44,881 bases of DNA, from sequence record PP920552.1. One strand, written 5' to 3'. The position numbers and the translations under genes are program-made. This document shows positions 8,243 to 44,555 of this stretch, in pieces. The notes under the pieces are model-generated. The model was not told the DNA's origin. It did no database searches and saw nothing but the letters and a program-made list of their open reading frames with translations. Positions within the stretch are counted from its first letter, which is position 1, and every line of letters begins with the position of its first letter. This DNA comes from Escherichia phage SM_A2.

Positions 8243-8743
8243 ATGTATGGCGACCCGCAAACCTTTGTCGATTATGCCGCTGCGCGAGGTGTTGAAGTCA
8301 CGCTGAGCGATGCAACGCGACACCTTACCGTCGTTAATGACTTCCTTAATGGGATCAACTGGATCGGCGAACCCGCAGACCAGACCGGCATCGACGCATG
8401 GCCCCGCGTCAACTACCCGTCAGACGGTAAGCCGGTGCAAAACACGCTTACTGAAGATTTGGCAGTAGTCCCCGCGGGGCAGATCGTAGACTTCGCCTCA
8501 ACCCCCGTTGCCGTTGAACAAGCCGTTTACCGGCTGGCGATGCTGGTGGCTGACGATGTTGATATTTCTCCGATCGGCGATGGAAAGGAGACTATCCGCG
8601 AAACGGTAGGCCCGATCACGATGGAGTATGACGCTGCGTCGATTGGTAGCGGGGTGTCTTTCCCGTGGTGGGATGGATTGCTGGGCTACTGGGTGAACAC
8701 TGACGGCAACGCCGCCGGTAACTTTGACGTATACAGGGGTTAA
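8243..8743 (+). CDS. hypothetical head/connector-associated protein
   Basis: ATG at 8243 with AGGAG RBS; 166 aa; position between capsid and neck genes. Confidence 0.4.
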   Translation: MYGDPQTFVDYAAARGVEVTLSDATRHLTVVNDFLNGINWIGEPADQTGIDAWPRVNYPSDGKPVQNTLTEDLAVVPAGQIVDFASTPVAVEQAVYRLAMLVADDVDISPIGDGKETIRETVGPITMEYDAASIGSGVSFPWWDGLLGYWVNTDGNAAGNFDVYRG

Positions 8744-8744
8744 C

Positions 8745-9188
<444 letters not shown>

Positions 9189-9215
9189 CATGGCGGGATT
9201 TAACTACGCAGGCTT

Positions 9216-9285
<70 letters not shown>

Positions 9286-9300
9286 CGAAGGGGGAGTAAC

Positions 9301-9654
9301 ATGGCGGGATTTAACTACGCAGGCTTGAAGCGGAAAGTAAATCCGCTGATTAAAAAATACGGCATGACCGTTAAGGTGACGCGTCCGGGGTCTGTTGACC
9401 GCGTAGACGGCGAAGAAGTGGTTATCCCGCCAACGTCGTTTGATGTCATCGGTCTTCGCGAGGAGTACAAGCCCAGCGAGATCGACGGGACTCGTATCAT
9501 TGCCGGTGACGTTAAGTTCTTATGCCAGGCATCGGAGCAAGTGCAGGTAGGCGATCTGGTTAACCTGAATAGCACGGACTACCGTGTTATCAATCCAAAT
9601 CCACTGCAACCGGCGGGAACTACCATGCTGTTTCAATTACAGCTAAGGGGCTAA
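9301..9654 (+). CDS. head-tail joining protein (putative); alternative in-frame start at 9190
   Basis: ATG 9301 preceded by AAGGGGGAG; an identical RBS+ATG lies 111 nt upstream (9190) in the same frame, which would add MAGFNYAGL-(SQ)11-SRRGSN. Confidence 0.4.
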   Translation: MAGFNYAGLKRKVNPLIKKYGMTVKVTRPGSVDRVDGEEVVIPPTSFDVIGLREEYKPSEIDGTRIIAGDVKFLCQASEQVQVGDLVNLNSTDYRVINPNPLQPAGTTMLFQLQLRG

Positions 9655-12204: not shown

Positions 12205-12588
12205 CGGAGCGGGACAGGCGGGACGTCCCGTTTTGCCCCGCACCTCTAAAACTGCATATTTACGCACCACAATTGCATAAATTAAAAGCGGGACAGGCGG
12301 GACGCCCCGTTTTGTCCCACCCCCAAAATGTGAATGTCTATTCAGTTTTAGTGCATAAACTAAGCGGGACAAAAAGCGGGACAGAATGAGGCGGGACAAA
12401 GCGGGACAGCACCCCCGTCCCCACCAGTGCTGCCGCGGTTTTTAGCCGATCGGGACAGGCGGGACAAAGCCCAGTCTTTCAGACTAGACGGGGGTCAATG
12501 GCCCCCCTCGTCTGAGACTGAATAAGGTTTGTTTTAAATTCGCTGATACAATGACAAACGGCAACTGCATAAAAAGGGGGACTGCATA
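12205..12588. repeat. non-coding iteron/hairpin element, copy 1
   Basis: 384-bp gap with no convincing ORF; about 10 copies of GCGGGAC(A); two 35-bp direct repeats (12209-12243 and 12288-12322); a long imperfect hairpin at 12472-12520; A(C/T)TGCATAA copies. Confidence 0.8.
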
Positions 12589-22699: not shown

Positions 22700-22727
22700 G
22701 TATTACACCGCTCAACCACGAATGCAA
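22700..22727 (-). promoter_or_regulatory. sigma70-like promoter with ATTGGTTGCA motif (leftward, lipoprotein gene)
   Basis: Read on the minus strand: ATTGGTTGCAT supplies TTGCAT (-35), 16-nt spacer, TAATAC (-10, fwd 22700-22705), about 30 nt upstream of the lipoprotein ATG. Confidence 0.5.
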
Positions 22728-22747
22728 CCAATTTATGAGGATTTAGC

Positions 22748-24341
22748 TATGGCAGCGGGTACTCTATCCGTAACGAATAACAGCAAGGCGGTTGTAGGGG
22801 TCGGCACAACGTTTACCGCGTACAAGGCTGGTGACTTCTTAACGCTGGTGGTAGGACAAGTCCCCTACACCGTAGCGATCGCGTCCATTGAAAGCGCAAC
22901 CGCGCTCACGCTGGTGTTACCGTTCGACGGCCCAACGGCAACCGGCCTTGCGTGGGACGGCGTTAAACGCGATACCATGTCACTGGCAACGATGGGCGTT
23001 ACCGTCCAGGCACAGAAAGCATTGCGTTTGATGATTGCAGATGAAAACAACTGGCGCGCAATCTTCGGCGACGACGAGCAGATCACGGTAACGCTGCCGA
23101 ATGGGCAAGTCATGCAGGGTATGTCATGGGGATATCTGTCACAGTTAATGAAGCAGATCGACCCGGAGGAAATTCTCAACCTGCAACAGCAAGCCGCCGC
23201 GTCTGAAGCCGCCGCGAAAGGATTCCGTAACGAGGCCGAAGGCTTCAAGAATGACACTAACACGATTAAGACGCAGACTAACCAGATTAAGACGGATACC
23301 GGTGCTATTCGCGACCAGGCCAACACCGCGAAGACTGCCGCGCAAGATGCCCGAGATGCCGCGCAAGATGCCCGAGATGCCGCGCTGGGATACCGGGATG
23401 AAGCTGAACAATTCAAGAATGAGATCGCCACGTCGCAATTTCCAAAGCTGGGCAGCAAGAATAGATTCACACAGCCGCAGGAGTTTTTCGCACCATACCC
23501 AGGCCTCAACCTGACGTCTACTGCCGTGGGTGAGGATTATCTTGGTCGAACTATCCTGATTGAGAACATCACAGGCAATAGGCTTAACTTCTTCTACACG
23601 AAGCAAGGCGACAACACCGGGCGCTACACTATCAGTCTTCCGAAGCCAGAAAATACGCAGGTTATGACGATCGGCCTTGATGGTGGTTTATCGCTTAACG
23701 GCGACTCATATAACGCCGGGGAAGGTAGCGGAGTAGACTTCAGTGTCGGGCAGCAAGGGTGGCGTCAGGTAGCAGGACCGTGGTCAAACGGCCCGATAAG
23801 CGGCAATATGTACGGAGCATTGTTCTCGCAATGCGTGCAGGGGCTAAACGTTGGCCCCTACGGTGCCAACGGAACGCAGGGCAGATGGTTTATGCAGCGC
23901 TTTTACGACACATCAGCGAATATCTTCACGCGCGTGCAAACTAACGCGACACCGTGGCAAAACTGGTATAAAGTCACCACGTCCGCGGTATCGGATGAAC
24001 GCCTGAAGGATATCAAGGGCAATCTCAATGTGGAGGGTGCACTGGATAACATCAACCGCATGGAGTTTAAACTCTTCTCATTTAAAAATGAGAAGTCAGA
24101 AAGCAAACAGCCTATTACGCGTCGCGGTGTTATCAGCCAGCAGATCCGTCTTATTGACAAAGAGTACACAACCGAAGTAGGCGGATTCTACCACTTGGAT
24201 CAGACCCCGATGCTGTTAGATGGCCTGGCGGCGATCAAAGCATTGCGTGCGCGTGACGAAGCGAATAAGGCTGAAATCGCGGAATTGAAAGCTGCCGTTG
24301 AGGATTTGAAAGCCGCGGTCGCGGCACTGACAAAAGCATAA
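22748..24341 (+). CDS. tail fibre protein with C-terminal intramolecular chaperone domain
   Basis: ATG 22748 with GAGGA RBS (ORF track opens at 22722); coiled-coil segment with a 21-bp tandem repeat (AQDARDA x2); C-terminal SDERLKDIKG-type motif typical of self-cleaving chaperone domains. Confidence 0.8.
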
Positions 24342-33015: not shown

Positions 33016-33816
33016 TTAACGGCGGCGACGTTTGCGTGGCGCTTCGTCTTCGTCGTCGTCCTCATCATCTTCGTCATCGCGTGGCTTACGACGTTTGCGA
33101 GGTGTTTCATCTTCGTCGTCGTCATCGCGGCGCTTGGACTTTTTGGACTTGCGCGGCTTGTCGTCTTCGTCATCGTCATCACGACGTTTTGACTTTTTGG
33201 ACTTACGCGGGCTTTCGTCTTCGTCGTCGTTATCCAGGTCTTCGTCGGAACATGAAGACCCGCCACCGCCGAAGGCTTCGCCGTCTTCACGGAATCGCAG
33301 ACCCAGCAAGCCCGCCCCGAGTCCCTTGCCGTTGGTATTGTTCCATGCCCAAATATCAAGGGACACGTTGCAATAACAACCGGGGTAGATCTCCTGGCCT
33401 TCGATCTCGTCGCCTTCTACGGTCAGACCTTGTTCAGTCTGCTTCTCGCCGAGTGACGTTTGGATGATAGGCTGTTTGAACGATTTGGCGTTGATATACA
33501 ACATGCCTTCGAATTCTTCGGTTACTTCGTCGCGCTCGTCACCGTCGCGGACTGCGCATTCCTTAGAATCCTGGGCGTAGTGGCGGTCCATCCACTTATC
33601 GGCATTCTTCTCGGATTTCAGCTTGTCGGTGAGCACTGCGCGCGCTGCCGCTTCCACTTTGTCCACCTGCGGATCTTCTTTATCAAGAAGAATCACGGCG
33701 CGGTATGCCGGTTTTTGTCCATCCTGTTTAGGGGTATCACGTTCCCAAATTTTCAGGAAACATACGCGCACATTTTTCAGGTTGACTTTAGCCATTTTCC
33801 AATTCCTCATTTTCAC
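33016..33816 (-). CDS. ssDNA-binding-like protein (DUF2815-type, putative) with charged repeat tail
   Basis: 266 aa; location next to the DUF2800-like nuclease and polymerase matches the conserved phage replication module; C-terminal about 70 aa alternate poly-acidic and poly-basic blocks from tandem DNA repeats (about 33040-33235). Confidence 0.5.
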   Translation of the reverse strand: MKMRNWKMAKVNLKNVRVCFLKIWERDTPKQDGQKPAYRAVILLDKEDPQVDKVEAAARAVLTDKLKSEKNADKWMDRHYAQDSKECAVRDGDERDEVTEEFEGMLYINAKSFKQPIIQTSLGEKQTEQGLTVEGDEIEGQEIYPGCYCNVSLDIWAWNNTNGKGLGAGLLGLRFREDGEAFGGGGSSCSDEDLDNDDEDESPRKSKKSKRRDDDDEDDKPRKSKKSKRRDDDDEDETPRKRRKPRDDEDDEDDDEDEAPRKRRRR

Positions 33817-33885: not shown

Positions 33886-34128
33886 TCAAGCATTTTCATT
33901 AAAAAGATTTCTGGTCACGTAGTTGGTAGCGTTCTCGATCCAGCTTAGCGGCGGGCGTTCGATGTTCTTTTCCACCCAATCGACGGCAACTTCGCTATAT
34001 CCGTCATCCAGCCAGCGGGTCGGATGGCGAATCATCCACGCCACCATTAACACGCCTTGCACGCAATGCAGGATAAAGCCCAGCGCGCCGAGCAAAAACA
34101 TCAATAAGATTGCGAATACTTTATTCAT
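33886..34128 (-). CDS. small membrane protein (hypothetical)
   Basis: 80 aa; two hydrophobic helices (VFAILLMFLLGALGFIL, GVLMVAWMI). Confidence 0.45.
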   Translation of the reverse strand: MNKVFAILLMFLLGALGFILHCVQGVLMVAWMIRHPTRWLDDGYSEVAVDWVEKNIERPPLSWIENATNYVTRNLFNENA

Positions 34129-35551
34129 TGCTTAAGTCCTCGTCAGTAGCTTCCGACCACGCAGGGCGCGGGTCGTCGATTGGAGCTAACACCGGTTTGG
34201 CAGGTGCGCGCGTGATTTTATCACACAGCTTCGCCCACACTTTCGGTTTTTCGTCCTTCAGTACCTTCTCGGCATCCGTAGGGCTGAGCAATGTTTCTTT
34301 GTACATCACATCGCGCTTGATCCGGGCCTTCGTGAAGATTTCAATCACTTCGCTCTCGTCCGCCCACTTACGGATCCCTTCCTTACCGGCAACCATCTTG
34401 AGGCCCAGCGATTCGCCATCGCCCGCCATGACCGCCTTGAATACCGCGGACTCGATAGCCTTGATGTGCTGGCGCATTGCGTCCAGGCCTTCATAAGCCT
34501 TGCGCAGTTCCGCAGCGCTCATAGCACCGGGGGCCGCTTCTTTCTTGCCACGCTTCGCACGTCGGGCCGCCTTCCGGGCTTCGCGGGCCATATTGCGGTC
34601 GTGATTGGCGCATTCTTCCTCGGTCGCCACGCTCACGTCGTCGCCCAGGTCTTCGTCGGTTGCCGTTGGAGGTGTCATCGTGTCGATTGCGGCCTTAGCG
34701 CGGGCACTACACTGATCCGCAAATCGGCACCACTGGCACGCATCAACGCTGGGACGGAAGTCGGCACGGGTAAGTCCCTTCTTGCCTCGGGAATACGCCT
34801 CCAGTGCGGCAATAGCGCGCTTGGATGCAAACTTCGCGAATATCTCCAGCGCTTCTACCGAAATATCCCACTCCGACGCCCCGCCGCAATACGGCTGGAA
34901 GATAACCAGGCGCACGGTCGTAATGTCGTACATAGTTTGCAGCTTGCGCAGCAGGCCGAGCGCGTACAACATAAGCTGTTTGTTTTCTTTCGCCTCGACC
35001 TTATGCCTCCCGGTCTTCAGGTCGCCAACAATCAGCATGTACGTCCCATCGGTCTTTTTCATGACCATGACCATATCGGCAGTACCGAACGTTTTAATCC
35101 TGTTGCCGTCGATCTCGTAGCCTGAGTGAAGGACGCGGGTCAGATCGGCGCGCATCTCAAGCTGGACAAACTCCGCCACTTCGAGGAGCGGTCGCCAGTG
35201 GTCGATGTACGCGTCGCACTGTTTCACCATGTCGTCGTTGACCAGTACGCCGCCTTTCGGTGCTTTAGGGTGTGCCTTCACTGGCCCCTTGCCTTCGTTC
35301 TCGACGTAGCACCCTTTATACGTCTTCGCGGTTATCAGCTTCTCACCGGCGATAATGCGGTTTAGCACCACCTCAGATACGGTGTGCATACTCGTACCGT
35401 TAATCGCGGCTTGCCCGGATTCGTTCGGGATATCTTTTTCCACCACCAGGGCAGCAGGGCAACCCATCCACTTTTTAGCACCGGATGGCCCAAGTAATGA
35501 GTGTTCTGTATTGCTACCGGATTGCGTTTTACGTTTTGGTTTAATCGCCAT
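34121..35551 (-). CDS. DUF2800-type PD-(D/E)XK nuclease (Cas4-like, Fe-S cluster)
   Basis: 476 aa; N-terminal LLGPSGAKKWMGCPA; nuclease core (IVGDLKTGRHKVEAKENKQLMLYALGL); C-terminal Cys cluster CQWCRFADQC consistent with a 4Fe-4S site. Confidence 0.7.
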   Translation of the reverse strand: MAIKPKRKTQSGSNTEHSLLGPSGAKKWMGCPAALVVEKDIPNESGQAAINGTSMHTVSEVVLNRIIAGEKLITAKTYKGCYVENEGKGPVKAHPKAPKGGVLVNDDMVKQCDAYIDHWRPLLEVAEFVQLEMRADLTRVLHSGYEIDGNRIKTFGTADMVMVMKKTDGTYMLIVGDLKTGRHKVEAKENKQLMLYALGLLRKLQTMYDITTVRLVIFQPYCGGASEWDISVEALEIFAKFASKRAIAALEAYSRGKKGLTRADFRPSVDACQWCRFADQCSARAKAAIDTMTPPTATDEDLGDDVSVATEEECANHDRNMAREARKAARRAKRGKKEAAPGAMSAAELRKAYEGLDAMRQHIKAIESAVFKAVMAGDGESLGLKMVAGKEGIRKWADESEVIEIFTKARIKRDVMYKETLLSPTDAEKVLKDEKPKVWAKLCDKITRAPAKPVLAPIDDPRPAWSEATDEDLSNE

Positions 35552-36029: not shown

Positions 36030-36641
36030 TTAATCTTCCAGTTCGAAATAAGTTTCGACGATTTCTTTAAGATCTTTGTGGAAGTCTTCGACGTCGTCAT
36101 CTTCCAGCTTGGCGATTGATTTGATCTCGAACGATTCCAGCAGGTCGTCGAATTCGTCGTTGGCATCGTCGTCGTCACCACCAGCGATAATAGCGGCGTA
36201 TTGTTTGATCTCATCGCGCATCTCCGCCAGCGGATCGGCATCTTTCTTGCCTTTGCCTTTCGCCGGGGCTTTTTTAGATTTAGCCGGTTTTTCGTCTTCG
36301 GCGTCATCGTCGTCATCTTCTTCTACGACTTCTTTTTTGGCCTTACCTTTCGCCGGGGCTTTTTTAGATTTAGCCGGTTTTTCGTCTTCGGCGTCATCGT
36401 CGTCATCTTCTTCTACGACTTCTTTTTTCGCCTTACCTTTCGCCGGGGCTTTTTTAGATTTAGCCGGTTTTTCGTCTTCGGCGTCATCGTCGTCATCTTC
36501 TTCTACGACTTCTTTTTTCGCCTTAGACGGCTTCTTGTCTTCCTGCTTACCAACGGCAGCGCCAACGGTTTCATAATGCTTAGCGATGGTTTCCAGTGCT
36601 ACTACGCCGCGAGTAATCAGGTTTACGATTTGTTCAAACAT
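36030..36641 (-). CDS. charged-repeat protein, first gene of leftward operon
   Basis: 203 aa; three tandem 38-aa repeats (KKEVVEEDDDDDAEDEKPAKSKKAPAKGKAKK) from 114-bp DNA repeats (about 36245-36530); strongly acidic C-terminus; GGAGAT RBS. Confidence 0.6.
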   Translation of the reverse strand: MFEQIVNLITRGVVALETIAKHYETVGAAVGKQEDKKPSKAKKEVVEEDDDDDAEDEKPAKSKKAPAKGKAKKEVVEEDDDDDAEDEKPAKSKKAPAKGKAKKEVVEEDDDDDAEDEKPAKSKKAPAKGKGKKDADPLAEMRDEIKQYAAIIAGGDDDDANDEFDDLLESFEIKSIAKLEDDDVEDFHKDLKEIVETYFELED

Positions 36642-37385: not shown

Positions 37386-39650
37386 ATGAGCTTAATTAAA
37401 TTCGCTGTAACAAGACCCGCTAAAAAAGGCGAAAAAGCCAGGGCGGAAAACTTCCAGATGACCACCGATGAATTTTTCGAATTTATCAATGATGCGAAAG
37501 AAATCTCCTCGGTGCATATCAACAAGACGGAAGATAAAGCCGAGTATGCGCGCCGCAAGCGTAAGGCCGACGGCATCGTGGCGTATACCAGTGACGGATT
37601 GCGTCGTAAGACCAGTGCGGTGGACCGCTCGATCCTGTTCTTCGATATTGACCGCACCGACACCCGCACCCTACGCCGCTGCCGTAAGGCGTTCATTGAC
37701 GCGGGTCTGGAGCACGTCTTCCACACCACAACCGGCGACCGTCACCCACTGAAAGGCGGCACGCGTTGCGCTCGATTCCTGGTGCTCACTGACAAGCCTG
37801 TACCGGCTGAAGACCTGGGCCGCGTCCAGTATGCACTATTACACCAACTGGGTCTGTCAGATGTGGACTTCGACGATTGCACGAAAGACACAAACCGCCT
37901 GATGTACCTGCCACACCAGCAGTCTGTTATTAAGTGCCACTATGGCAAGCGCGCCCGCGTCCGTCGTCTGCTCCTCCTGGCTGACAAGCTGGGAGTTGAG
38001 AAAGAGGAAGTCCGTCGCGAACTGACCCAGGGCGACGACGCAGTGGCAGACGGCATTCTGGACTGGTGCTTCCAGGCAGGATTCGAGGAGTTATCTTCAG
38101 GGCGGGGCTATGAAGTGCCGTGCCCGAACGAACATCTGCACAGCGGCGAAGGGTCGACGGCTATCATGGTTAAGGATGGCGAGATCCGTTTCAAGTGTAT
38201 GCACACCGGCAACGAGTGTTGCTCGGAGCTGAACAGACACCAGCACCTGGCGCTACGTCTTATCGGGATCCCGGACCACCTGAACGTCGAGCCACACAAT
38301 ATGTCCCGTAAGCAAATCGCCGCCATCCTTCCGGGGCTGGACGTCGAGGAAGTCGAATCCTTATATGAACATATTGTTGATGCGGTTGGCGACGGCGAAG
38401 AATACGGCGTGTGCACCGATGCGGATCTGGATAACGAGCCGGTTGCGCTGTTCAGTAAGCACGACCCGATTATCGAGGGGTTGATTAACTTTAAATCGAC
38501 CTGGTATATGGCGGGTGAGTCGAATATCGGTAAGTCTTTCTACGTGCTGGGCCAGATGGGCGCGGTTGCCGCCGGTATTCCGTTTGGCGGTGCGAAGGTC
38601 GTACAGTCTCATTGCTTCTATTTCGACGCGGAAGGTGGCGAAGCCTCCAACCAGCGTAAAGAAGCATTGCAGATTAAATACGAGCACGACCTGGACAAGC
38701 TGCACATTATAGACCTGCAGTCACGCGGCTGGGATATCACCAGCAAATCGGGCTTGCGCGAAGTTATCAGCTTTATCAACCGCACCGCTAACGGCGAACC
38801 GGTTGGCCTGGTGGCGTTCGACTCACTCAACCAGACTGTTGCGTTGCGGTCCGCCGAGGCTAAACCGTTCGACGAGAACAACGCCAGCGATATGGGCGAA
38901 GTGGTCAAAGCGCTGAAGGCCATCGCGGAAAATACAGGTGGCAGTGCGGGCGTCATCCACCACCCGGCTAAAGGTGCAAACGGCAGCAGAACGCCACGCG
39001 GGTCCGGCGCGCTGCATGGTGCTGTCGATTCTGCGTTCTTCCTGGAACAGCCGGACGACAACCAGCCCGGACAATTGAACCTGTATCATGAGAAGTCACG
39101 TAACGGCATCAAGCAAGCGCCGCGCGGCTTCGTCCTGCTTAAGTGCAAGGTGAAGGTGGATCTCCGCAAGTCAGAAGCGTTCGAGGCGCACCAGTCCACC
39201 AGCACCGGTCCAGACTTCGGCGACGTGGTTGCCGGATGGGACGTCAAGCCGATCGCCTCCACGCCACGCGACGAGACTCTCTACCTCGTACCGGTTGCCC
39301 TGGCACCTTTCGCTATTGAACAGGCGAAGGCAGCAGGCAAGGCCGCGGTTAAGGAAGAGAACACCGCCGGGCCGCGCAACGAAAAAGAGAAAGTGCTTTA
39401 TGCGGCACTGGAAAAACTGATGGAAGATAACCCGGACCATACTGGATTCAGTAAATCGGCAATTGTCCGCCAGGCGGGACTCGCGAAAGGCGGCACTTCG
39501 ACGAAGGCAATCGACGATATGGTGGAGCGCGGAGTGATAGGTTTCTATACCGATCCGCACACCGGGGCCATCTATGGGTCGTCTAATTTGGTCATAAAAA
39601 CGGATATACCAATCACGCTTTCGGCGACCGACGAAGACTTGAAAGATTAA
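37386..39650 (+). CDS. DNA primase / helicase (primase-polymerase N-domain + P-loop NTPase)
   Basis: 754 aa; N-terminal acidic motif ILFFDIDRTD; Cys/His cluster (CPNEHLH...CMHTGNECC); Walker A GESNIGKS and Walker B-like LVAFDS. Confidence 0.8.
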   Translation: MSLIKFAVTRPAKKGEKARAENFQMTTDEFFEFINDAKEISSVHINKTEDKAEYARRKRKADGIVAYTSDGLRRKTSAVDRSILFFDIDRTDTRTLRRCRKAFIDAGLEHVFHTTTGDRHPLKGGTRCARFLVLTDKPVPAEDLGRVQYALLHQLGLSDVDFDDCTKDTNRLMYLPHQQSVIKCHYGKRARVRRLLLLADKLGVEKEEVRRELTQGDDAVADGILDWCFQAGFEELSSGRGYEVPCPNEHLHSGEGSTAIMVKDGEIRFKCMHTGNECCSELNRHQHLALRLIGIPDHLNVEPHNMSRKQIAAILPGLDVEEVESLYEHIVDAVGDGEEYGVCTDADLDNEPVALFSKHDPIIEGLINFKSTWYMAGESNIGKSFYVLGQMGAVAAGIPFGGAKVVQSHCFYFDAEGGEASNQRKEALQIKYEHDLDKLHIIDLQSRGWDITSKSGLREVISFINRTANGEPVGLVAFDSLNQTVALRSAEAKPFDENNASDMGEVVKALKAIAENTGGSAGVIHHPAKGANGSRTPRGSGALHGAVDSAFFLEQPDDNQPGQLNLYHEKSRNGIKQAPRGFVLLKCKVKVDLRKSEAFEAHQSTSTGPDFGDVVAGWDVKPIASTPRDETLYLVPVALAPFAIEQAKAAGKAAVKEENTAGPRNEKEKVLYAALEKLMEDNPDHTGFSKSAIVRQAGLAKGGTSTKAIDDMVERGVIGFYTDPHTGAIYGSSNLVIKTDIPITLSATDEDLKD

Positions 39651-39741: not shown

Positions 39742-39914
39742 AACTGCATAAAACAAACGGGACAAAAAGCGGGACAAACAGGGGGCGGGACAAAGCGGGA
39801 CAGCACCCCTGTCCCGCCCCGGATGACGCGGCCTGGCGAGGAGCGGGACAGCGGGACAGCACCCCAGTCTTTCAGACTAGACGGGGGGTCTGGCACCCCC
39901 CTCGTCTGAGACTG
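39742..39914. repeat. non-coding iteron/hairpin element, copy 2
   Basis: Paralogue of 12361-12520: about 6 GCGGGACA copies, A(C/T)TGCATAA copies and the conserved long hairpin (39865-39914); lies in the 480-bp gap after the primase-helicase gene. Confidence 0.8.
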
Positions 39915-40102: not shown

Positions 40103-40130
40103 GGTTGCACACCAACAAGAGGACTGAACG

Positions 40131-40436
40131 ATGAGAGCTTTAATCTGGAATTACACAATAGCGGTGGCGAAGCTGTATGAAGCGAAGCACACAGACGGCA
40201 ACGCAGACGACGCGCGCCAGGTTGTCATCCTGGCCCAGCAGGGAATCATGAACGCGTTCGACGATATGTTTGCCAGCCTGGACGAACTGGAACCGCTGCG
40301 CGTGGCAATCTGCGAATATGCGATGGCTTTTGCCCGCGAGCGCCTGGCGTATCGCTTCGGGATCGGTGAGACGGCAGTGACAAACGTCGCCCGGATTAAA
40401 GCCCAGCGCGAACTATTCGCCCAGCTTGCGAAATAA
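40131..40436 (+). CDS. hypothetical protein
   Basis: 101 aa; AAGAGGA RBS; no motif recognised. Confidence 0.5.
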   Translation: MRALIWNYTIAVAKLYEAKHTDGNADDARQVVILAQQGIMNAFDDMFASLDELEPLRVAICEYAMAFARERLAYRFGIGETAVTNVARIKAQRELFAQLAK

Positions 40437-40445
40437 GGGGCCAAA

Positions 40446-40715
40446 ATGGACCGCAGACGCGCAAAACGCCTTTCATGGCGTATTCCACTGCATTGCATAC
40501 GAATATGGGCTAAGAATGCGAATGAGGGCGATTCTGTGTTCTGGTGCTACAGCGATGATGTGAAGCCATTAACGCAGACCCGCTACTTGCGCCAGTTCGC
40601 CAGGGAGCATGGGTTAGCCATAAAAACGTCCTTGCAACCAATTGGCATTCGTATTACATTACGCCGGAAGCCCGCCGTTGAGCGGGTAGGCAAACACTGG
40701 AGACTGAGCAAATGA
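40446..40715 (+). CDS. hypothetical protein
   Basis: 89 aa; AAGGGG RBS; basic; ends in the duplicated junction GGAGACTGAGCAAATGA. Confidence 0.5.
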   Translation: MDRRRAKRLSWRIPLHCIRIWAKNANEGDSVFWCYSDDVKPLTQTRYLRQFAREHGLAIKTSLQPIGIRITLRRKPAVERVGKHWRLSK

Positions 40716-40864
40716 TCCGAGTCAAGAGCAAGGCCACCGGATTGATTTATCTCGTGGTGTGGGAAGGGAACGGAAGCGTTACGCTCATGCACCCAAAAAC
40801 CAAATCCCGCCACACTATCAGCCAATTTACCCTGAACAATAACTATCGGAGACTGAGCAAATGA
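40712..40864 (+). CDS. hypothetical small protein
   Basis: 50 aa; ATGA-coupled at both ends; both junctions carry the same 17-mer GGAGACTGAGCAAATGA. Confidence 0.35.
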   Translation: MIRVKSKATGLIYLVVWEGNGSVTLMHPKTKSRHTISQFTLNNNYRRLSK

Positions 40865-41013
40865 CACCAATGCAAAGAGCGCTAATGGCTGGATTCTCGC
40901 AGAAGTTTATTTCAGTAGACGCCTGCATAGCTGATTATGAGATGGACGGCATCGCTACGGTATGCGATGGCGACTATAAGACTGTTGACGAGATTGAGGA
41001 GACAGAACAATGA
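40861..41013 (+). CDS. hypothetical small protein
   Basis: 50 aa; ATGA-coupled start and stop; acidic. Confidence 0.35.
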   Translation: MTPMQRALMAGFSQKFISVDACIADYEMDGIATVCDGDYKTVDEIEETEQ

Positions 41014-41567
41014 AATTACTATTCCGCCGTAAGCACGATGGTCGTATTCTGAAGCCGATCCAGACCCTGGATTCCTACGTCCGCCTACAAAACGCGGCAG
41101 GCAATCGGGTGTGGCGGGCACCGAAACACACGCTGCCGCAGTTCTTCGACGTACTCACGCACGATATTGAGCGCGGCGATGTGCTGCGTGATATCCGCGA
41201 CGGTAGTATGTGGATCGTTGAATATGTCGGTCTTCATGGCCTGCGTATGCAATCCCGCAAGGATGGCGTAGCAGGTATGACTTACTTCGGGCTGGTCAAC
41301 TACGAGCGAGTGGGCCGAAAATACTGCCTTCGTGACCGCCAGCCGCATGAGCGCGTTGAGTTCCGCAAGACACAACACGCCTACGCAACCTACGACTCCC
41401 ACCAGGCGCAATCGAAGATGGAGCGTACCGCGCACGAAATCATAAATCGCTTTGATGCCGTGACGAATGCTCAGCGCCATGCGCAGGAATATGGCGTTGG
41501 ATTCATCCGGGTGGAACAAGACGGCAGCATGAAGGCCATCGACCCGCGCTCGGTGATTCTGAAATGA
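41010..41567 (+). CDS. hypothetical protein
   Basis: 185 aa; ATGA-coupled; no motif recognised. Confidence 0.55.
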   Translation: MKLLFRRKHDGRILKPIQTLDSYVRLQNAAGNRVWRAPKHTLPQFFDVLTHDIERGDVLRDIRDGSMWIVEYVGLHGLRMQSRKDGVAGMTYFGLVNYERVGRKYCLRDRQPHERVEFRKTQHAYATYDSHQAQSKMERTAHEIINRFDAVTNAQRHAQEYGVGFIRVEQDGSMKAIDPRSVILK

Positions 41568-41710
41568 GTGCGACGATCCGGGATATGCTGATGCATAACC
41601 GCTTTGAGATAGGCGGTCGGGTATTTCGCAATTACTTCGTGGCGCGTGCCTGGGCGCGTCATATTGGCAAACCGGAAGGGGCAATTCGATGCTATACGTC
41701 TTCGCGGTAG
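41564..41710 (+). CDS. hypothetical small protein
   Basis: 48 aa; ATGA-coupled start; not in ORF track (below size cut-off). Confidence 0.3.
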   Translation: MSATIRDMLMHNRFEIGGRVFRNYFVARAWARHIGKPEGAIRCYTSSR

Positions 41711-41786
41711 TATGTGGCGGTAGTCTGGCGGCCCTGGTGCTGTTGGCGTCGGTTATTAGTCTGGTTAAATACCTATGGGGCAGATT

Positions 41787-42074
41787 ATGATTCATGATGT
41801 GATTTATTGGTTTGGTTTGATCTGCGGGCTGTGCCTGCTTACCGCGGTGCTGTTGGGCGTCCTGATGTTTGTAGTATGGCCCGCCGTGGAAGCCGCCAGC
41901 ATTACCCGCATGACGTTCCAGATATACAAGCGCCGTGGAATCACGGAGCACCCGACCCGGTTGCGCATGTGGTGGCTGTGGTATCGGGATATGGTTGGGG
42001 GCCGGATGTTCGAGGCAGTCCGATCGGAAGGATGGGAATGGAGAGGCGTCGGCAAGTGGTCCATTTTCGATTAA
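41787..42074 (+). CDS. hypothetical membrane protein
   Basis: 95 aa from ATG 41787; N-terminal TM helix (VIYWFGLICGLCLLTAVLLGVLMFVVW); Trp/Arg-rich C-terminus; a 33-codon TM-peptide ORF (41689-41790) overlaps upstream. Confidence 0.4.
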   Translation: MIHDVIYWFGLICGLCLLTAVLLGVLMFVVWPAVEAASITRMTFQIYKRRGITEHPTRLRMWWLWYRDMVGGRMFEAVRSEGWEWRGVGKWSIFD

Positions 42075-42091: not shown

Positions 42092-42126
42092 AGTCCCAGT
42101 GAGCTAAAACTTACTGGGACTTTTTT
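42092..42126 (+). terminator. intrinsic terminator directly abutting the holin start codon
   Basis: AGTCCCAGT-(12-nt loop)-ACTGGGACT hairpin followed by T6, ending 1 nt before ATG 42127. Confidence 0.6.
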
Positions 42127-43412: not shown

Positions 43413-44555
43413 ATGCACCCGCAAACTAAAATCACCGACGAGCAATTGATCGCCGAGTTGCAATCCGGCACTACCTCGAAAGATATTGCGAAGAAATACG
43501 GGATTGCCCTACGCAATGTCTATATGCGGAAAGCCCGCCTATCGAAGAAAGGGATTGGACACGGCAACGATGCCGTAATCCGCAAGCGCGTTGCCGATGG
43601 CTTTGGGGTTAAGCGCGTATCGGCCCTGGTGCGCGGCAATGGCGAAGAGGTCATGTCGTGGGTTATTACGGAGCAGGACAAGGAGCGCCAACTCGAAGCT
43701 ATGCGCGCTGTTGTCGCGGGTATGAACAGCGAAATCACACCGGCAGCGCCAGTAAACGCCCCTCCAGTACCGATCCAGGCGCTCGACTTGCTCAACCTGT
43801 ACACCGTGTCAGACTTCCACTTGGGCATGTTGGCATGGGGCGAGGAGACTGGCGAAGACTGGGATATGGCGATCGCCGAAGACCTGTTCTACCGCTGGTT
43901 TGTAGAAGCCTTCGCACGCGCACCAGACGCAGGCACTGCCGTAATTAATATCCTCGGGGATATGGCCCACTTTGATAGCCTCGATGCTGTCACTCCGGCA
44001 AGTGGTCACGTACTGGACGCCGACACCCGCTACCAGAAACTGGTCCGATACATGATTCGCATGGTGCGCAACGTCGTCGAACTGGCGCTGCAAAAACACC
44101 ACAAAGTCAAACTGCTAATCGTCCAGGGAAATCATGACGAGTCGGGTATGATTTGGCTGGCTGAGATGTTCAATACTCTGTACGAGAACGAGCCGCGCGT
44201 CGATGTAGATACGTCACCGGACGTATACAAGATGGTGCAGCACGGTAAGACCACGCTGTTTTTCCACCACGGGCACAAAGCGCGATTCGATGCTATCGAG
44301 CCGGTTATGATTTCTAAATTCAGACAGGCTTTCGGGTCCAGTGAGTATAGCTACGCGCACGTAGGCCACTTGCACCACCAGAAGATTGTAGAATCCCGCA
44401 ACATGATTGTTGAACAGCACCGGACGCTCGCAGCGAAAGACGCCTACGCCAGTCGTGGCGGTTGGATGTCAGGTCGTAGTGCCAACGTCATTACCTACAG
44501 CGCCAACTACGGCGAAGTTGCACGCTTAACCATTAGCCCGGAAATGTTGAAATGA
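43413..44555 (+). CDS. calcineurin-like metallophosphoesterase with N-terminal HTH-like domain
   Basis: 380 aa; phosphoesterase motifs VSDFHLG (D-x-H), ILGDMAHFD (GD-x-x-D), QGNHDE (GNH[DE]) plus later His pairs; N-terminal 40 aa HTH-like. Confidence 0.7.
   Translation: MHPQTKITDEQLIAELQSGTTSKDIAKKYGIALRNVYMRKARLSKKGIGHGNDAVIRKRVADGFGVKRVSALVRGNGEEVMSWVITEQDKERQLEAMRAVVAGMNSEITPAAPVNAPPVPIQALDLLNLYTVSDFHLGMLAWGEETGEDWDMAIAEDLFYRWFVEAFARAPDAGTAVINILGDMAHFDSLDAVTPASGHVLDADTRYQKLVRYMIRMVRNVVELALQKHHKVKLLIVQGNHDESGMIWLAEMFNTLYENEPRVDVDTSPDVYKMVQHGKTTLFFHHGHKARFDAIEPVMISKFRQAFGSSEYSYAHVGHLHHQKIVESRNMIVEQHRTLAAKDAYASRGGWMSGRSANVITYSANYGEVARLTISPEMLK

What the first reader, a model, noticed from the sequence alone, without database searches (positions are those of the whole stretch)
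40698..40864. Identical 17-bp junction sequence at two consecutive gene boundaries
GGAGACTGAGCAAATGA occurs at 40698-40714 and 40848-40864. Each copy encodes the last residues (RLSK) and stop of one gene and the RBS plus ATG of the next in ATGA overlap. Repeated boundary sequences are what illegitimate or homology-facilitated recombination between gene cassettes would leave behind, suggesting this run of small genes (40131-42074) is an exchangeable cassette array.
Basis: seen in the sequence. Interest (0 to 1): 0.4.

Follow-up and report, generated by a model that had tools for sequence, protein, structure and literature searches.

The report
Shared junction sequence shuffles small phage genes
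Two consecutive small genes in this E. coli phage end in the same 17-base stop/ribosome-site/start junction, and related phages show that small genes are gained, lost and reordered exactly at that junction, which is a clean but ordinary example of how phage genomes become mosaic.

Summary
The repeat is real. Each copy encodes R-L-S-K-stop of one gene plus the GGAG ribosome site and ATG of the next. The window is a Dhillonvirus, an HK578-like E. coli siphophage.

In about 45 related genomes, the slot between a conserved 89-aa gene (g1) and a conserved 185-aa gene (g4) holds at least seven arrangements of four unrelated small genes: g2, g3, gX and gY. Every boundary carries this junction or a version one base shorter, GGAGACTGAGCAATGA, which is read in another frame as E-T-E-Q-stop.

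Phage NHEP3 matches the window at 142 of 142 bases to the left and 193 of 194 to the right, yet lacks exactly the 149 bp between the repeats. YD-2008.s has g2 but lacks g3. All four presence/absence combinations of g2 and g3 exist.

g2 shows no homology to its neighbours and is under purifying selection (dN/dS about 0.15).

This is a new member of a known kind: conserved boundary sequences that mediate modular exchange in phages. Interest is modest.

The parts
40446..40715 (+). g1, a conserved 89-aa gene (PHROG 12533, unknown function) that forms the left anchor of the array. Its last 70 nt, including junction J1, are 90-100% conserved across relatives.
40699..40715 (+). J1, the long form of the junction: GGAGACTGAGCAAATGA. 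It encodes R-L-S-K-stop of g1, the GGAG ribosome site, a 9-nt spacer and the ATG of g2 in an ATGA overlap.
40712..40864 (+). g2, an optional 50-aa cassette gene. It matches no PHROG and is found only in Dhillonvirus-like contigs. dN/dS is 0.12-0.16, so it is a real coding gene.
40848..40864 (+). J2, the second exact copy of the 17-mer: R-L-S-K-stop of g2 plus the ribosome site and ATG of g3.
40861..41013 (+). g3, an optional 50-aa cassette gene (PHROG 15977, unknown function). It is present in 104 of 156 records, with length variants of 44-84 aa.
40998..41013 (+). J3, the short form of the junction: GGAGACAGAACAATGA. In several relatives it is GGAGACTGAGCAATGA. It is read as (E)-T-E-Q-stop of g3 plus the ribosome site and ATG of g4, again with an ATGA overlap.
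41010..41567 (+). g4, a 185-aa gene (PHROG 10243, unknown function) that forms the right anchor of the array. Its 5' end (MKLLFRRK) is conserved, and it is internally mosaic.
33019..33816 (-). Gp2.5-like ssDNA-binding/annealing protein. This is a candidate phage-encoded activity for short-homology annealing; the link to the junction is inferred, not shown.
34124..35551 (-). Exonuclease (PHROG 69), a candidate partner of the annealing protein. The link is inferred.
42092..42121 (+). Intrinsic-terminator-like hairpin followed by a T-run, lying just past the last gene of the small-gene run. No promoter-like or terminator-like site was found at the junctions.

Best explanation
The 17-mer (J) is a translational-coupling junction. 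It holds the last four codons and stop of the upstream gene, a GGAG Shine-Dalgarno site, a 9-nt spacer, and the ATG of the next gene overlapping the TGA. In Dhillonviruses it is shared by every slot between two conserved genes, g1 and g4.

At each boundary, J is the island of nucleotide identity that otherwise unrelated small genes share. It therefore acts as a short homology 'linker'. Recombination between J copies, either within one genome or unequally between co-infecting genomes, deletes, inserts and reorders whole genes in register. Each product keeps an intact stop, ribosome site and start. In this window the two copies flank the optional 50-aa gene g2.

Shown: the cassette polymorphism, the breakpoints at J, and the lack of homology between cassettes. 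Inferred: the enzymology. Candidates are single-strand annealing by the phage's Gp2.5-like protein with an exonuclease, replication slippage, or host RecA. The direction of each event (gain or loss) is also inferred.
For: (1) Architectures g1-g4, g1-g3-g4, g1-g2-g4, g1-g2-g3-g4, g1-gX-g3-g4, g1-g2-gX-g3-g4 and g1-gY-g4 all occur among about 45 relatives. Every boundary carries J or its short form. One contig (L061) has four consecutive copies.

(2) All four g2/g3 presence combinations exist: PEC9 -/-, YD-2008.s +/-, NHEP3 -/+, window +/+.

(3) Window versus NHEP3 shows 0 mismatches over 40557-40698, a gap of exactly 149 nt bounded by the repeats, then 1 mismatch over 40848-41041. Window versus YD-2008.s shows 3 mismatches over 40673-40859, then a 149-nt gap that removes g3.

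(4) Identity to the window is discordant from segment to segment within the same relative. LF50P3 is 82/93/98.5/82% for g1/g2/g3/g4.

(5) hhalign finds no homology of g2 to g1, g4, gX or gY (probability below 2%; only the terminal WRLSK aligns), so J is an isolated nucleotide island.

(6) The same 13 nt, GGAGACTGAGCAA, are used in two reading frames (RLSK-stop and ETEQ-stop). Conservation is therefore at the nucleotide level.

(7) In the old diverged g2 lineage J2 has drifted by 4-6 of 17 bases. Exact identity is thus not functionally required and points to recent exchange.

(8) In L060 both copies carry the same variant, GGAGACTGCGCAAATGA. That variant also precedes the matching N-terminal sequence of a g3 form in Lzu_P1.

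(9) The phage encodes a Gp2.5-like annealing protein and exonucleases.
Against: No experiment shows recombination at J. Seventeen base pairs is below the efficient length for RecA-dependent recombination (from my own knowledge). The last 70 nt of g1 are conserved as a block, so J1 is not more conserved than its left flank, and left-hand crossovers could lie anywhere in g1. The window's own J3 (GGAGACAGAACAATGA) resembles a generic GGAGAC-N6-ATGAAA ribosome site used elsewhere in the genome, so part of the similarity is ordinary ribosome-site preference. Only about 45 of the roughly 160 known genomes were read base by base, and independent events were not counted on a phylogeny.
Confidence: 0.8

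Rival explanations
1. Functional constraint only. Exchange happens by illegitimate recombination at random sites, and selection keeps only joints that recreate a good ribosome site, spacing and stop/start overlap. The junctions look alike by convergence, and J itself is not a preferred crossover site.
For: J contains a canonical GGAG and an ATGA overlap. GGAGAC-N6-ATGAAA recurs at unrelated genes in the window. The exact 17-mer also sits at ATGA gene junctions in three or four phage families that share no detectable proteins with the window, so such a sequence can arise or be kept at junctions independently.
Against: Four unrelated cassette families would each have had to converge on the same 13-17 nt, including a 9-nt spacer with no known constraint. 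The diverged g2 lineage shows the spacer is free to change. The NHEP3 indel has its endpoints exactly at the repeat, with near-identical flanks.
Confidence: 0.1
2. Tandem-duplication origin. J2 exists because a segment running from J into the next gene was duplicated, and g2 is a highly diverged copy of a neighbouring gene. On this view the repeat is a relic of duplication rather than an exchange site.
For: Another cassette in this slot, gY (114 aa; L001, L045, L046), is a partial paralogue of g4 residues 46-116 (hhalign probability 97%) and ends in a J copy. Duplication has therefore contributed at least once to this array.
Against: g2 shows no detectable homology to g1, g3, g4, gX or gY. Duplication does not explain why J stays 17/17 identical while the supposed copy diverged beyond recognition. 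It also does not explain the presence/absence of g2 between near-identical backbones.
Confidence: 0.05
3. J is primarily a recognition site for a phage- or host-encoded regulator, either a translational repressor or activator protein or a small RNA. This would resemble what was proposed for the start-associated sequences of Cluster K mycobacteriophages. On this view the cassette exchange is a by-product.
For: Conservation extends beyond the bases that can pair with 16S rRNA, as was noted for start-associated sequences (PMC3203893). All copies lie directly upstream of start codons.
Against: Each genome has only 2-4 copies, all in one array. No complementary sequence occurs elsewhere in the window. 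No significant RNA structure forms at J, with z-scores of 0.0, 0.2 and -0.7. The spacer diverges in old lineages.
Confidence: 0.05

Closest known systems
Conserved boundary ('linker') sequences in the modular-exchange model of phage evolution.
   Same: A short sequence is conserved at the borders of otherwise unrelated modules. Modules are swapped, gained or lost among related phages with joints at that sequence. Gene integrity is preserved.
   Different: Here the sequence is only 16-17 bp and lies inside a stop/start overlap, so it also appends a 4-aa tail (RLSK or ETEQ) to each cassette protein. It operates within one three- to five-gene slot of a virulent siphophage, not between functional modules of temperate lambdoids.
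PeSL cassettes of T4-type phages (PMC2839356, PMC4122927)
   Same: Repeated short regulatory motifs sit between small non-essential ORFs of unknown function in a hyperplastic region. Recombination between copies causes insertion, deletion and replacement of ORFs between close relatives.
   Different: PeSLs are intergenic composites of a sigma-70 promoter and a terminator stem-loop. J has no promoter or terminator and no stable structure. It is a translational junction rather than a transcriptional one. A J1 x J2 circle would be only 149 bp.
Start-associated sequences (SAS) of Cluster K mycobacteriophages (PMC3203893)
   Same: An asymmetric short repeat contains the ribosome-binding site and lies a few bases upstream of ATG starts of non-structural genes from different families. 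Conservation extends beyond the bases that pair with rRNA.
   Different: SAS is a different 13-bp sequence with 11-19 dispersed copies per genome, usually in intergenic gaps longer than 50 bp, and no role in recombination was proposed. J has 2-4 copies, all in one array, all in gene overlaps.
Deletion between short direct repeats in phage genomes (T7 studies by Pierce, Kong and Masker, recalled from my own knowledge and not retrieved here)
   Same: Two direct repeats of about 17 bp lie about 150 bp apart. The relative retains one copy and loses the interval, which is the classic product of slipped mispairing or single-strand annealing.
   Different: That is a mutational mechanism, not a system. 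Here the repeat is functional, is conserved across a genus, and also supports gain and reordering of genes.

Membership tests
Boundary/linker sequences mediating modular exchange in phages | A short sequence is conserved at the borders of modules that are otherwise unrelated. | tested here: met
   J or its short form lies at the 3' end of g1, g2, gX, gY and g3. The cassette families are not homologous to one another, except gY to g4.
Boundary/linker sequences mediating modular exchange in phages | Modules are present, absent or permuted among related genomes, with joints at the conserved sequence. | tested here: met
   At least seven architectures were found. The exact 149-nt indels relative to NHEP3 and YD-2008.s end at the junctions.
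Boundary/linker sequences mediating modular exchange in phages | Sequence relatedness changes abruptly across the boundary, giving a mosaic pattern. | tested here: met
   Per-segment identities are discordant, and the three-way informative sites switch parent.
Boundary/linker sequences mediating modular exchange in phages | Recombination is observed to occur at the sequence. | not testable with these tools
   This needs mixed infections or deep sequencing of lysates.
PeSL (T4-type promoter-early stem-loop cassettes) | Contains a sigma-70-type early promoter. | tested here: not met
   No promoter-like site lies at or near 40699-40715, 40848-40864 or 40998-41013.
PeSL (T4-type promoter-early stem-loop cassettes) | Contains a stable stem-loop that acts as a terminator or attenuator. 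| tested here: not met
   No terminator-like site lies at the junctions. The fold z-scores are 0.0, 0.2 and -0.7.
PeSL (T4-type promoter-early stem-loop cassettes) | Recombination between copies produces indels or replacement of small ORFs between close relatives. | tested here: met
Start-associated sequences (Cluster K mycobacteriophages) | An asymmetric repeat that includes the ribosome site, a few bases upstream of ATG starts. | tested here: met
   GGAG lies 9 nt (long form) or 8 nt (short form) before the ATG in every copy.
Start-associated sequences (Cluster K mycobacteriophages) | 11-19 copies dispersed through the non-structural half of the genome; consensus GGGATAGGAGCCC. | tested here: not met
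   The window has only two exact copies plus one degenerate copy, all within 315 bp. The sequence is different.
Integron-type gene cassettes | An attC-like imperfect inverted repeat at the cassette ends and a tyrosine-recombinase integrase. | tested here: not met
   J is not an inverted repeat and forms no hairpin. None of the 17 proteins scanned is an integrase. This was not a full proteome scan.
Tandemly duplicated paralogue array | Adjacent genes are homologous to one another. | tested here: not met
   hhalign gives g2 versus g1, g3, g4, gX and gY a probability below 2%. The feature is met only for gY versus g4 in other genomes.

The most novel reading that the evidence does not exclude
J might be more than a passive microhomology. 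It could be an actively maintained, portable 'cassette linker' kept identical by frequent gene conversion. It might be preferentially used by the phage's own annealing/exonuclease machinery or bound by a regulator, and it might be shared beyond Dhillonviruses. The exact 17-mer, with the same RLSK-stop/ATG overlap, also sits at gene junctions in three or four phage families that share no detectable proteins with the window.
Probability: 0.08. Interest if true: 0.6.

Novelty: new member of a known kind. Interest (0 to 1): 0.3.

Why it matters
This locus gives an unusually clean, base-resolved natural example of how small genes of unknown function are added to and removed from a phage operon without breaking translation. 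A 17-bp stop/ribosome-site/start junction serves as the common joint.

It also offers a tractable test of the old 'linker sequence' versus 'random joints plus selection' debate. The parental types (YD-2008.s-like and NHEP3-like), the predicted recombinants (this window's arrangement and the PEC9-like arrangement), and the exact joint are all known among cultured E. coli phages.

In practice, it marks a neutral, in-register insertion slot for engineering Dhillonviruses, several of which are used in phage-therapy and defence-system studies. It does not reveal a new kind of mechanism.

Tried and rejected
(1) Chance repeat. Rejected by shuffles and by the cross-genome pattern.

(2) g2 as a diverged duplicate of g1 or g4. 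By eye some motifs looked similar (KHTLPQF versus RHTISQF; ERVGK versus ERVGRK), but hhalign gave probabilities below 2%. Only gY is a g4 paralogue.

(3) J1 more conserved than the rest of g1. This is not so: the last 70 nt of g1 are uniformly 90-100% conserved, so I dropped the argument.

(4) RNA structure or an antisense partner for J. None was found.

(5) A promoter or terminator at the junctions, as in PeSLs. None was found.

(6) A second repeated boundary at the g0 start. The sequence CACACCAACAWGAGGACTGAACRATGA is conserved, but it is not duplicated around the extra 57-aa segment in Oekolampad and BMA1.

(7) Counting adjacency types with synthetic junction queries. I abandoned this because the search tool joins pieces up to about 570 nt apart, so adjacency cannot be read from coverage. 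I counted cassette presence instead.

(8) tblastx is not installed (one search returned nothing), so I repeated the comparison with tblastn.

(9) The homology search for g2 found only six close clusters, all in Dhillonvirus-like contigs. There is no evidence that g2 moves between phage groups.

(10) The function of g1-g4 remains unknown. PHROGs lists g1, g3 and g4 only as families of unknown function and finds no family for g2.

Full report
**Observation.** The 17-mer GGAGACTGAGCAAATGA occurs exactly twice in the window, at 40699-40715 and 40848-40864 on the + strand, 149 nt apart. No other copy exists on either strand with up to three mismatches, and dinucleotide-preserving shuffles give a mean of 0.08 matches. 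Identity stops at the repeat edges.

The ORF table confirms the reading:
- g1 (40446-40715, 89 aa) ends HWRLSK-TGA.
- g2 (40712-40864, 50 aa) ends YRRLSK-TGA.
- g3 (40861-41013, 50 aa) follows.
- Each ATG overlaps the preceding TGA as ATGA.

Each copy is therefore R-L-S-K-stop, a GGAG Shine-Dalgarno site, a 9-nt spacer and a start codon. A third, one-base-shorter and degenerate copy (GGAGACAGAACAATGA, 40998-41013) joins g3 to g4 (41010-41567, 185 aa).

**What the window is.** The region matches 156 phage records, nearly all labelled Dhillonvirus or Escherichia/Shigella phage (HK578-like siphophages), at 80-95% identity. The genes lie between the primase-helicase (37386-39650) and the holin/endolysin genes, as the annotations of relatives show. 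The next + strand genes after g4 are 41564-41710 and 41775-42074, and a terminator-like hairpin follows at 42092-42121. No promoter-like or terminator-like site was found at the junctions.

**Comparison with relatives.** I read the g1-g4 interval base by base in 27 GenBank Dhillonviruses, 11 IMG/VR contigs and 7 assembly contigs (analysis). g1 (78-97% aa identity) and the 5' end of g4 (MKLLFRRK) are always present. What lies between them varies:
- Nothing: SO-1, PEC9, mckay, LM40P1.
- g3 only: NHEP3, SSL-2009a, StarDew, KarlBarth and many others, with g3 variants of 44-84 aa.
- g2 only: YD-2008.s, 011D5.
- g2-g3: this window, LF50P3, Oekolampad, BF9.
- gX-g3, where gX is 62 aa: EK99P-1, Shigella phage 1b.
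- g2-gX-g3: L021, L061.
- gY, 114 aa: WF5505, 22664B1, L001.

All four presence/absence combinations of g2 and g3 exist. Among the 156 records, g2 is found by DNA in 14 (plus 10 with a 50-56% identical protein), g3 in 104, gX in 3 and gY in 7.

**The junctions.** Every boundary in these arrays carries the same sequence. The long form GGAGACTGAGCAAATGA lies after g1, g2 and gY (tail RLSK or RLRK). The short form GGAGACTGAGCAATGA lies after g3, and in L061 also after gX. The short form shares 13 nt with the long form but is read in a different frame, as E-T-E-Q-stop. It still has an ATGA overlap. Contig L061 has four consecutive copies. Because the same nucleotides serve in two reading frames, what is conserved is DNA or RNA sequence rather than a peptide.

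**Breakpoints.**
- Window versus NHEP3: no mismatch over 40557-40698, a gap of exactly 149 nt delimited by the two 17-mers, then one mismatch over 40848-41041.
- Window versus YD-2008.s: three mismatches over 40673-40859, covering the end of g1, g2 and J2, then a 149-nt gap that removes g3.
- Three-way informative sites: the 3' half of g1 in the window is NHEP3-like at 16 of 16 sites. g2 is 97.7% YD-like and g3 is 99.2% NHEP3-like. g4 switches from NHEP3-like (41033-41177) to YD-like (41201-41349).
- Other relatives show equally discordant identities. LF50P3 is 82/93/98.5/82% for g1/g2/g3/g4.

The window's arrangement is what an unequal crossover at J between a g1-J-g2-J-g4 genome and a g1-J-g3-J'-g4 genome would give. 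The reciprocal product, g1-J-g4, also exists in nature. Equally, NHEP3's arrangement is what a J1 x J2 deletion of the window's arrangement would give. I cannot tell the direction of the events. Either way, the endpoints lie in the repeat.

**Is the repeat a relic of protein homology or duplication?** Profile-profile comparison of the cassette families finds no relationship of g2 to g1, g3, g4, gX or gY. Probabilities are below 2%, and the only aligned columns against g1 are the terminal WRLSK. The one real relationship is gY with g4 residues 46-116 (probability 97%). Duplication has therefore fed this slot at least once, but it does not explain g2.

g2 is a genuine gene. Its dN/dS against its alleles is 0.12-0.16 at dS of 0.3-0.5. 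PHROGs assigns g1, g3 and g4 to families of unknown function and g2 to none. g2 homologues occur only in Dhillonvirus-like contigs.

**Constraint versus exchange.** The junction clearly has a function as a ribosome site with a stop/start overlap, and GGAGAC-N6-ATGAAA is a recurrent ribosome site elsewhere in this genome. Exact identity is nevertheless not required. In the old, diverged g2 lineage (ZCEC11, Opt212, McMelon) the junction after g2 has drifted to GGAGATTGACAGAATGA or GGAAACTGGAAAAATGA. In L060 both copies carry the same variant (GGAGACTGCGCAAATGA), which also precedes the matching N-terminal sequence of a g3 form in Lzu_P1. These points favour recent exchange or conversion at J over independent convergence. 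The junction RNA has no significant structure, with z-scores of 0.0, 0.2 and -0.7, and no complementary partner in the window.

**Mechanism.** Shown:
- J is the shared joint of a presence/absence and order polymorphism of small genes.
- At least one indel between near-identical backbones has its endpoints in the 17-bp repeats.

Inferred:
- The events are homology-dependent at J.
- The phage's own Gp2.5-like ssDNA-binding/annealing protein (33019-33816, minus strand) and exonucleases (34124-35551; 43413-44552) could support annealing at such short homology. From my own knowledge, this is as described for T7. PMC2327257 discusses it for phage annealing proteins acting on diverged or very short homologies.
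- Replication slippage between the direct repeats is an equally simple route to the deletions.

**Comparison with known systems.** The closest concept is the conserved boundary or 'linker' sequence of the modular theory of phage evolution. [quoted passage not shown]

T4-type PeSLs (PMC2839356, PMC4122927) work in the same way but are intergenic promoter-plus-terminator cassettes. J has neither feature, so it is not a PeSL.

The start-associated sequences of Cluster K mycobacteriophages (PMC3203893) share the position and ribosome-site content. They differ in that they are dispersed, number 11-19 per genome, and have a different sequence.

The locus is therefore a new member of a known kind. 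Its particular feature is that the linker lies inside a stop/start overlap and donates a four-residue tail to each cassette protein.

**Limits.**
- About 45 of roughly 160 available genomes were read at base level.
- Events were not counted on a phylogeny.
- No experiment was possible.
That region is mosaic: g0 has alternative alleles, g4 varies in length, and the small ORFs after g4 vary. Its other boundaries do not use J.

Noticed in passing
window 9077-9328: A (GCCAGA)n hexamer array of about 34 copies overlaps a perfect 111-bp tandem duplication (2.0 copies, 100% identity). The duplicated unit contains GGGGGAGTAACATGG, which is a ribosome site, a stop and a start. It lies at the boundary of two 154-aa ORFs (8724-9188 and 9190-9654). 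It could be a real duplication of a gene junction or an assembly artefact.
   Followed up: no
window 12208-12510 and 39758-39900: Two copies of a ~150-bp non-coding module rich in GCGGGACA repeats. They share 20-26-mers, for example GGCGGGACAAAGCGGGACAGCACCCC at 12390 and 39784, and CCCAGTCTTTCAGACTAGACGGGGG at 12470 and 39863. The second copy lies just upstream of the small-gene run. It looks regulatory, such as a promoter/operator or origin-like element.
   Followed up: no
window 36241-36525 (minus-strand ORF 36030-36641) and 33105-33234: A 90-bp tandem repeat of 3.2 copies at 97% identity lies inside a 203-aa ORF (PHROG 3127, unknown function). A 54-bp repeat of 2.4 copies lies inside the Gp2.5-like gene.
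   Followed up: no
window 23336-23385: A perfect 21-bp tandem repeat of 2.4 copies lies inside ORF 22722-24341.
   Followed up: no
L002/L004/L013/L017, L006/L019, L009, L018 (IMG/VR contigs): The exact 17-mer also occurs in five groups of phage contigs with no detectable protein homology to the window. In three or four of them it again sits at an ATGA gene junction, with the upstream ORF ending RLSK-stop and a downstream ORF starting at the ATG. My rough estimate is about one such junction hit by chance, so this could be chance plus ribosome-site bias or something more.
   Followed up: partly
L001, L045 (WF5505), L046 (22664B1): the gene between g1 and g4: The 114-aa cassette gY is a partial paralogue of g4 residues 46-116 (hhalign probability 97%) and is capped by a junction copy (tail WRLRK). 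This suggests a partial duplication of g4 into the slot.
   Followed up: partly
L048 (phage BF9) 1911-2222: In BF9 a g3-type gene is fused in frame to the C-terminal ~55 residues of g4, giving a 103-aa product. This is a deletion joining g3 to the end of g4, and it produced a spurious g3-g4 hhalign hit.
   Followed up: partly
window 40105-40134 and the same site in relatives: The start of g0 (40131) has its own conserved boundary, CACACCAACAWGAGGACTGAACRATGA, with an ATGA overlap. Some relatives have a different upstream sequence (ctggttgagagggttacggaactATGA). Oekolampad and BMA1 carry an extra in-frame ~57-aa segment (MKFPVIIKDGKST...) ahead of g0.
   Followed up: partly
window 41033-41390 (inside g4): g4 is internally mosaic. 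Informative sites are NHEP3-like over 41033-41177, YD-2008.s-like over 41201-41349, and NHEP3-like again over 41354-41387. Crossovers therefore also occur within homologous coding sequence, not only at the junctions.
   Followed up: partly
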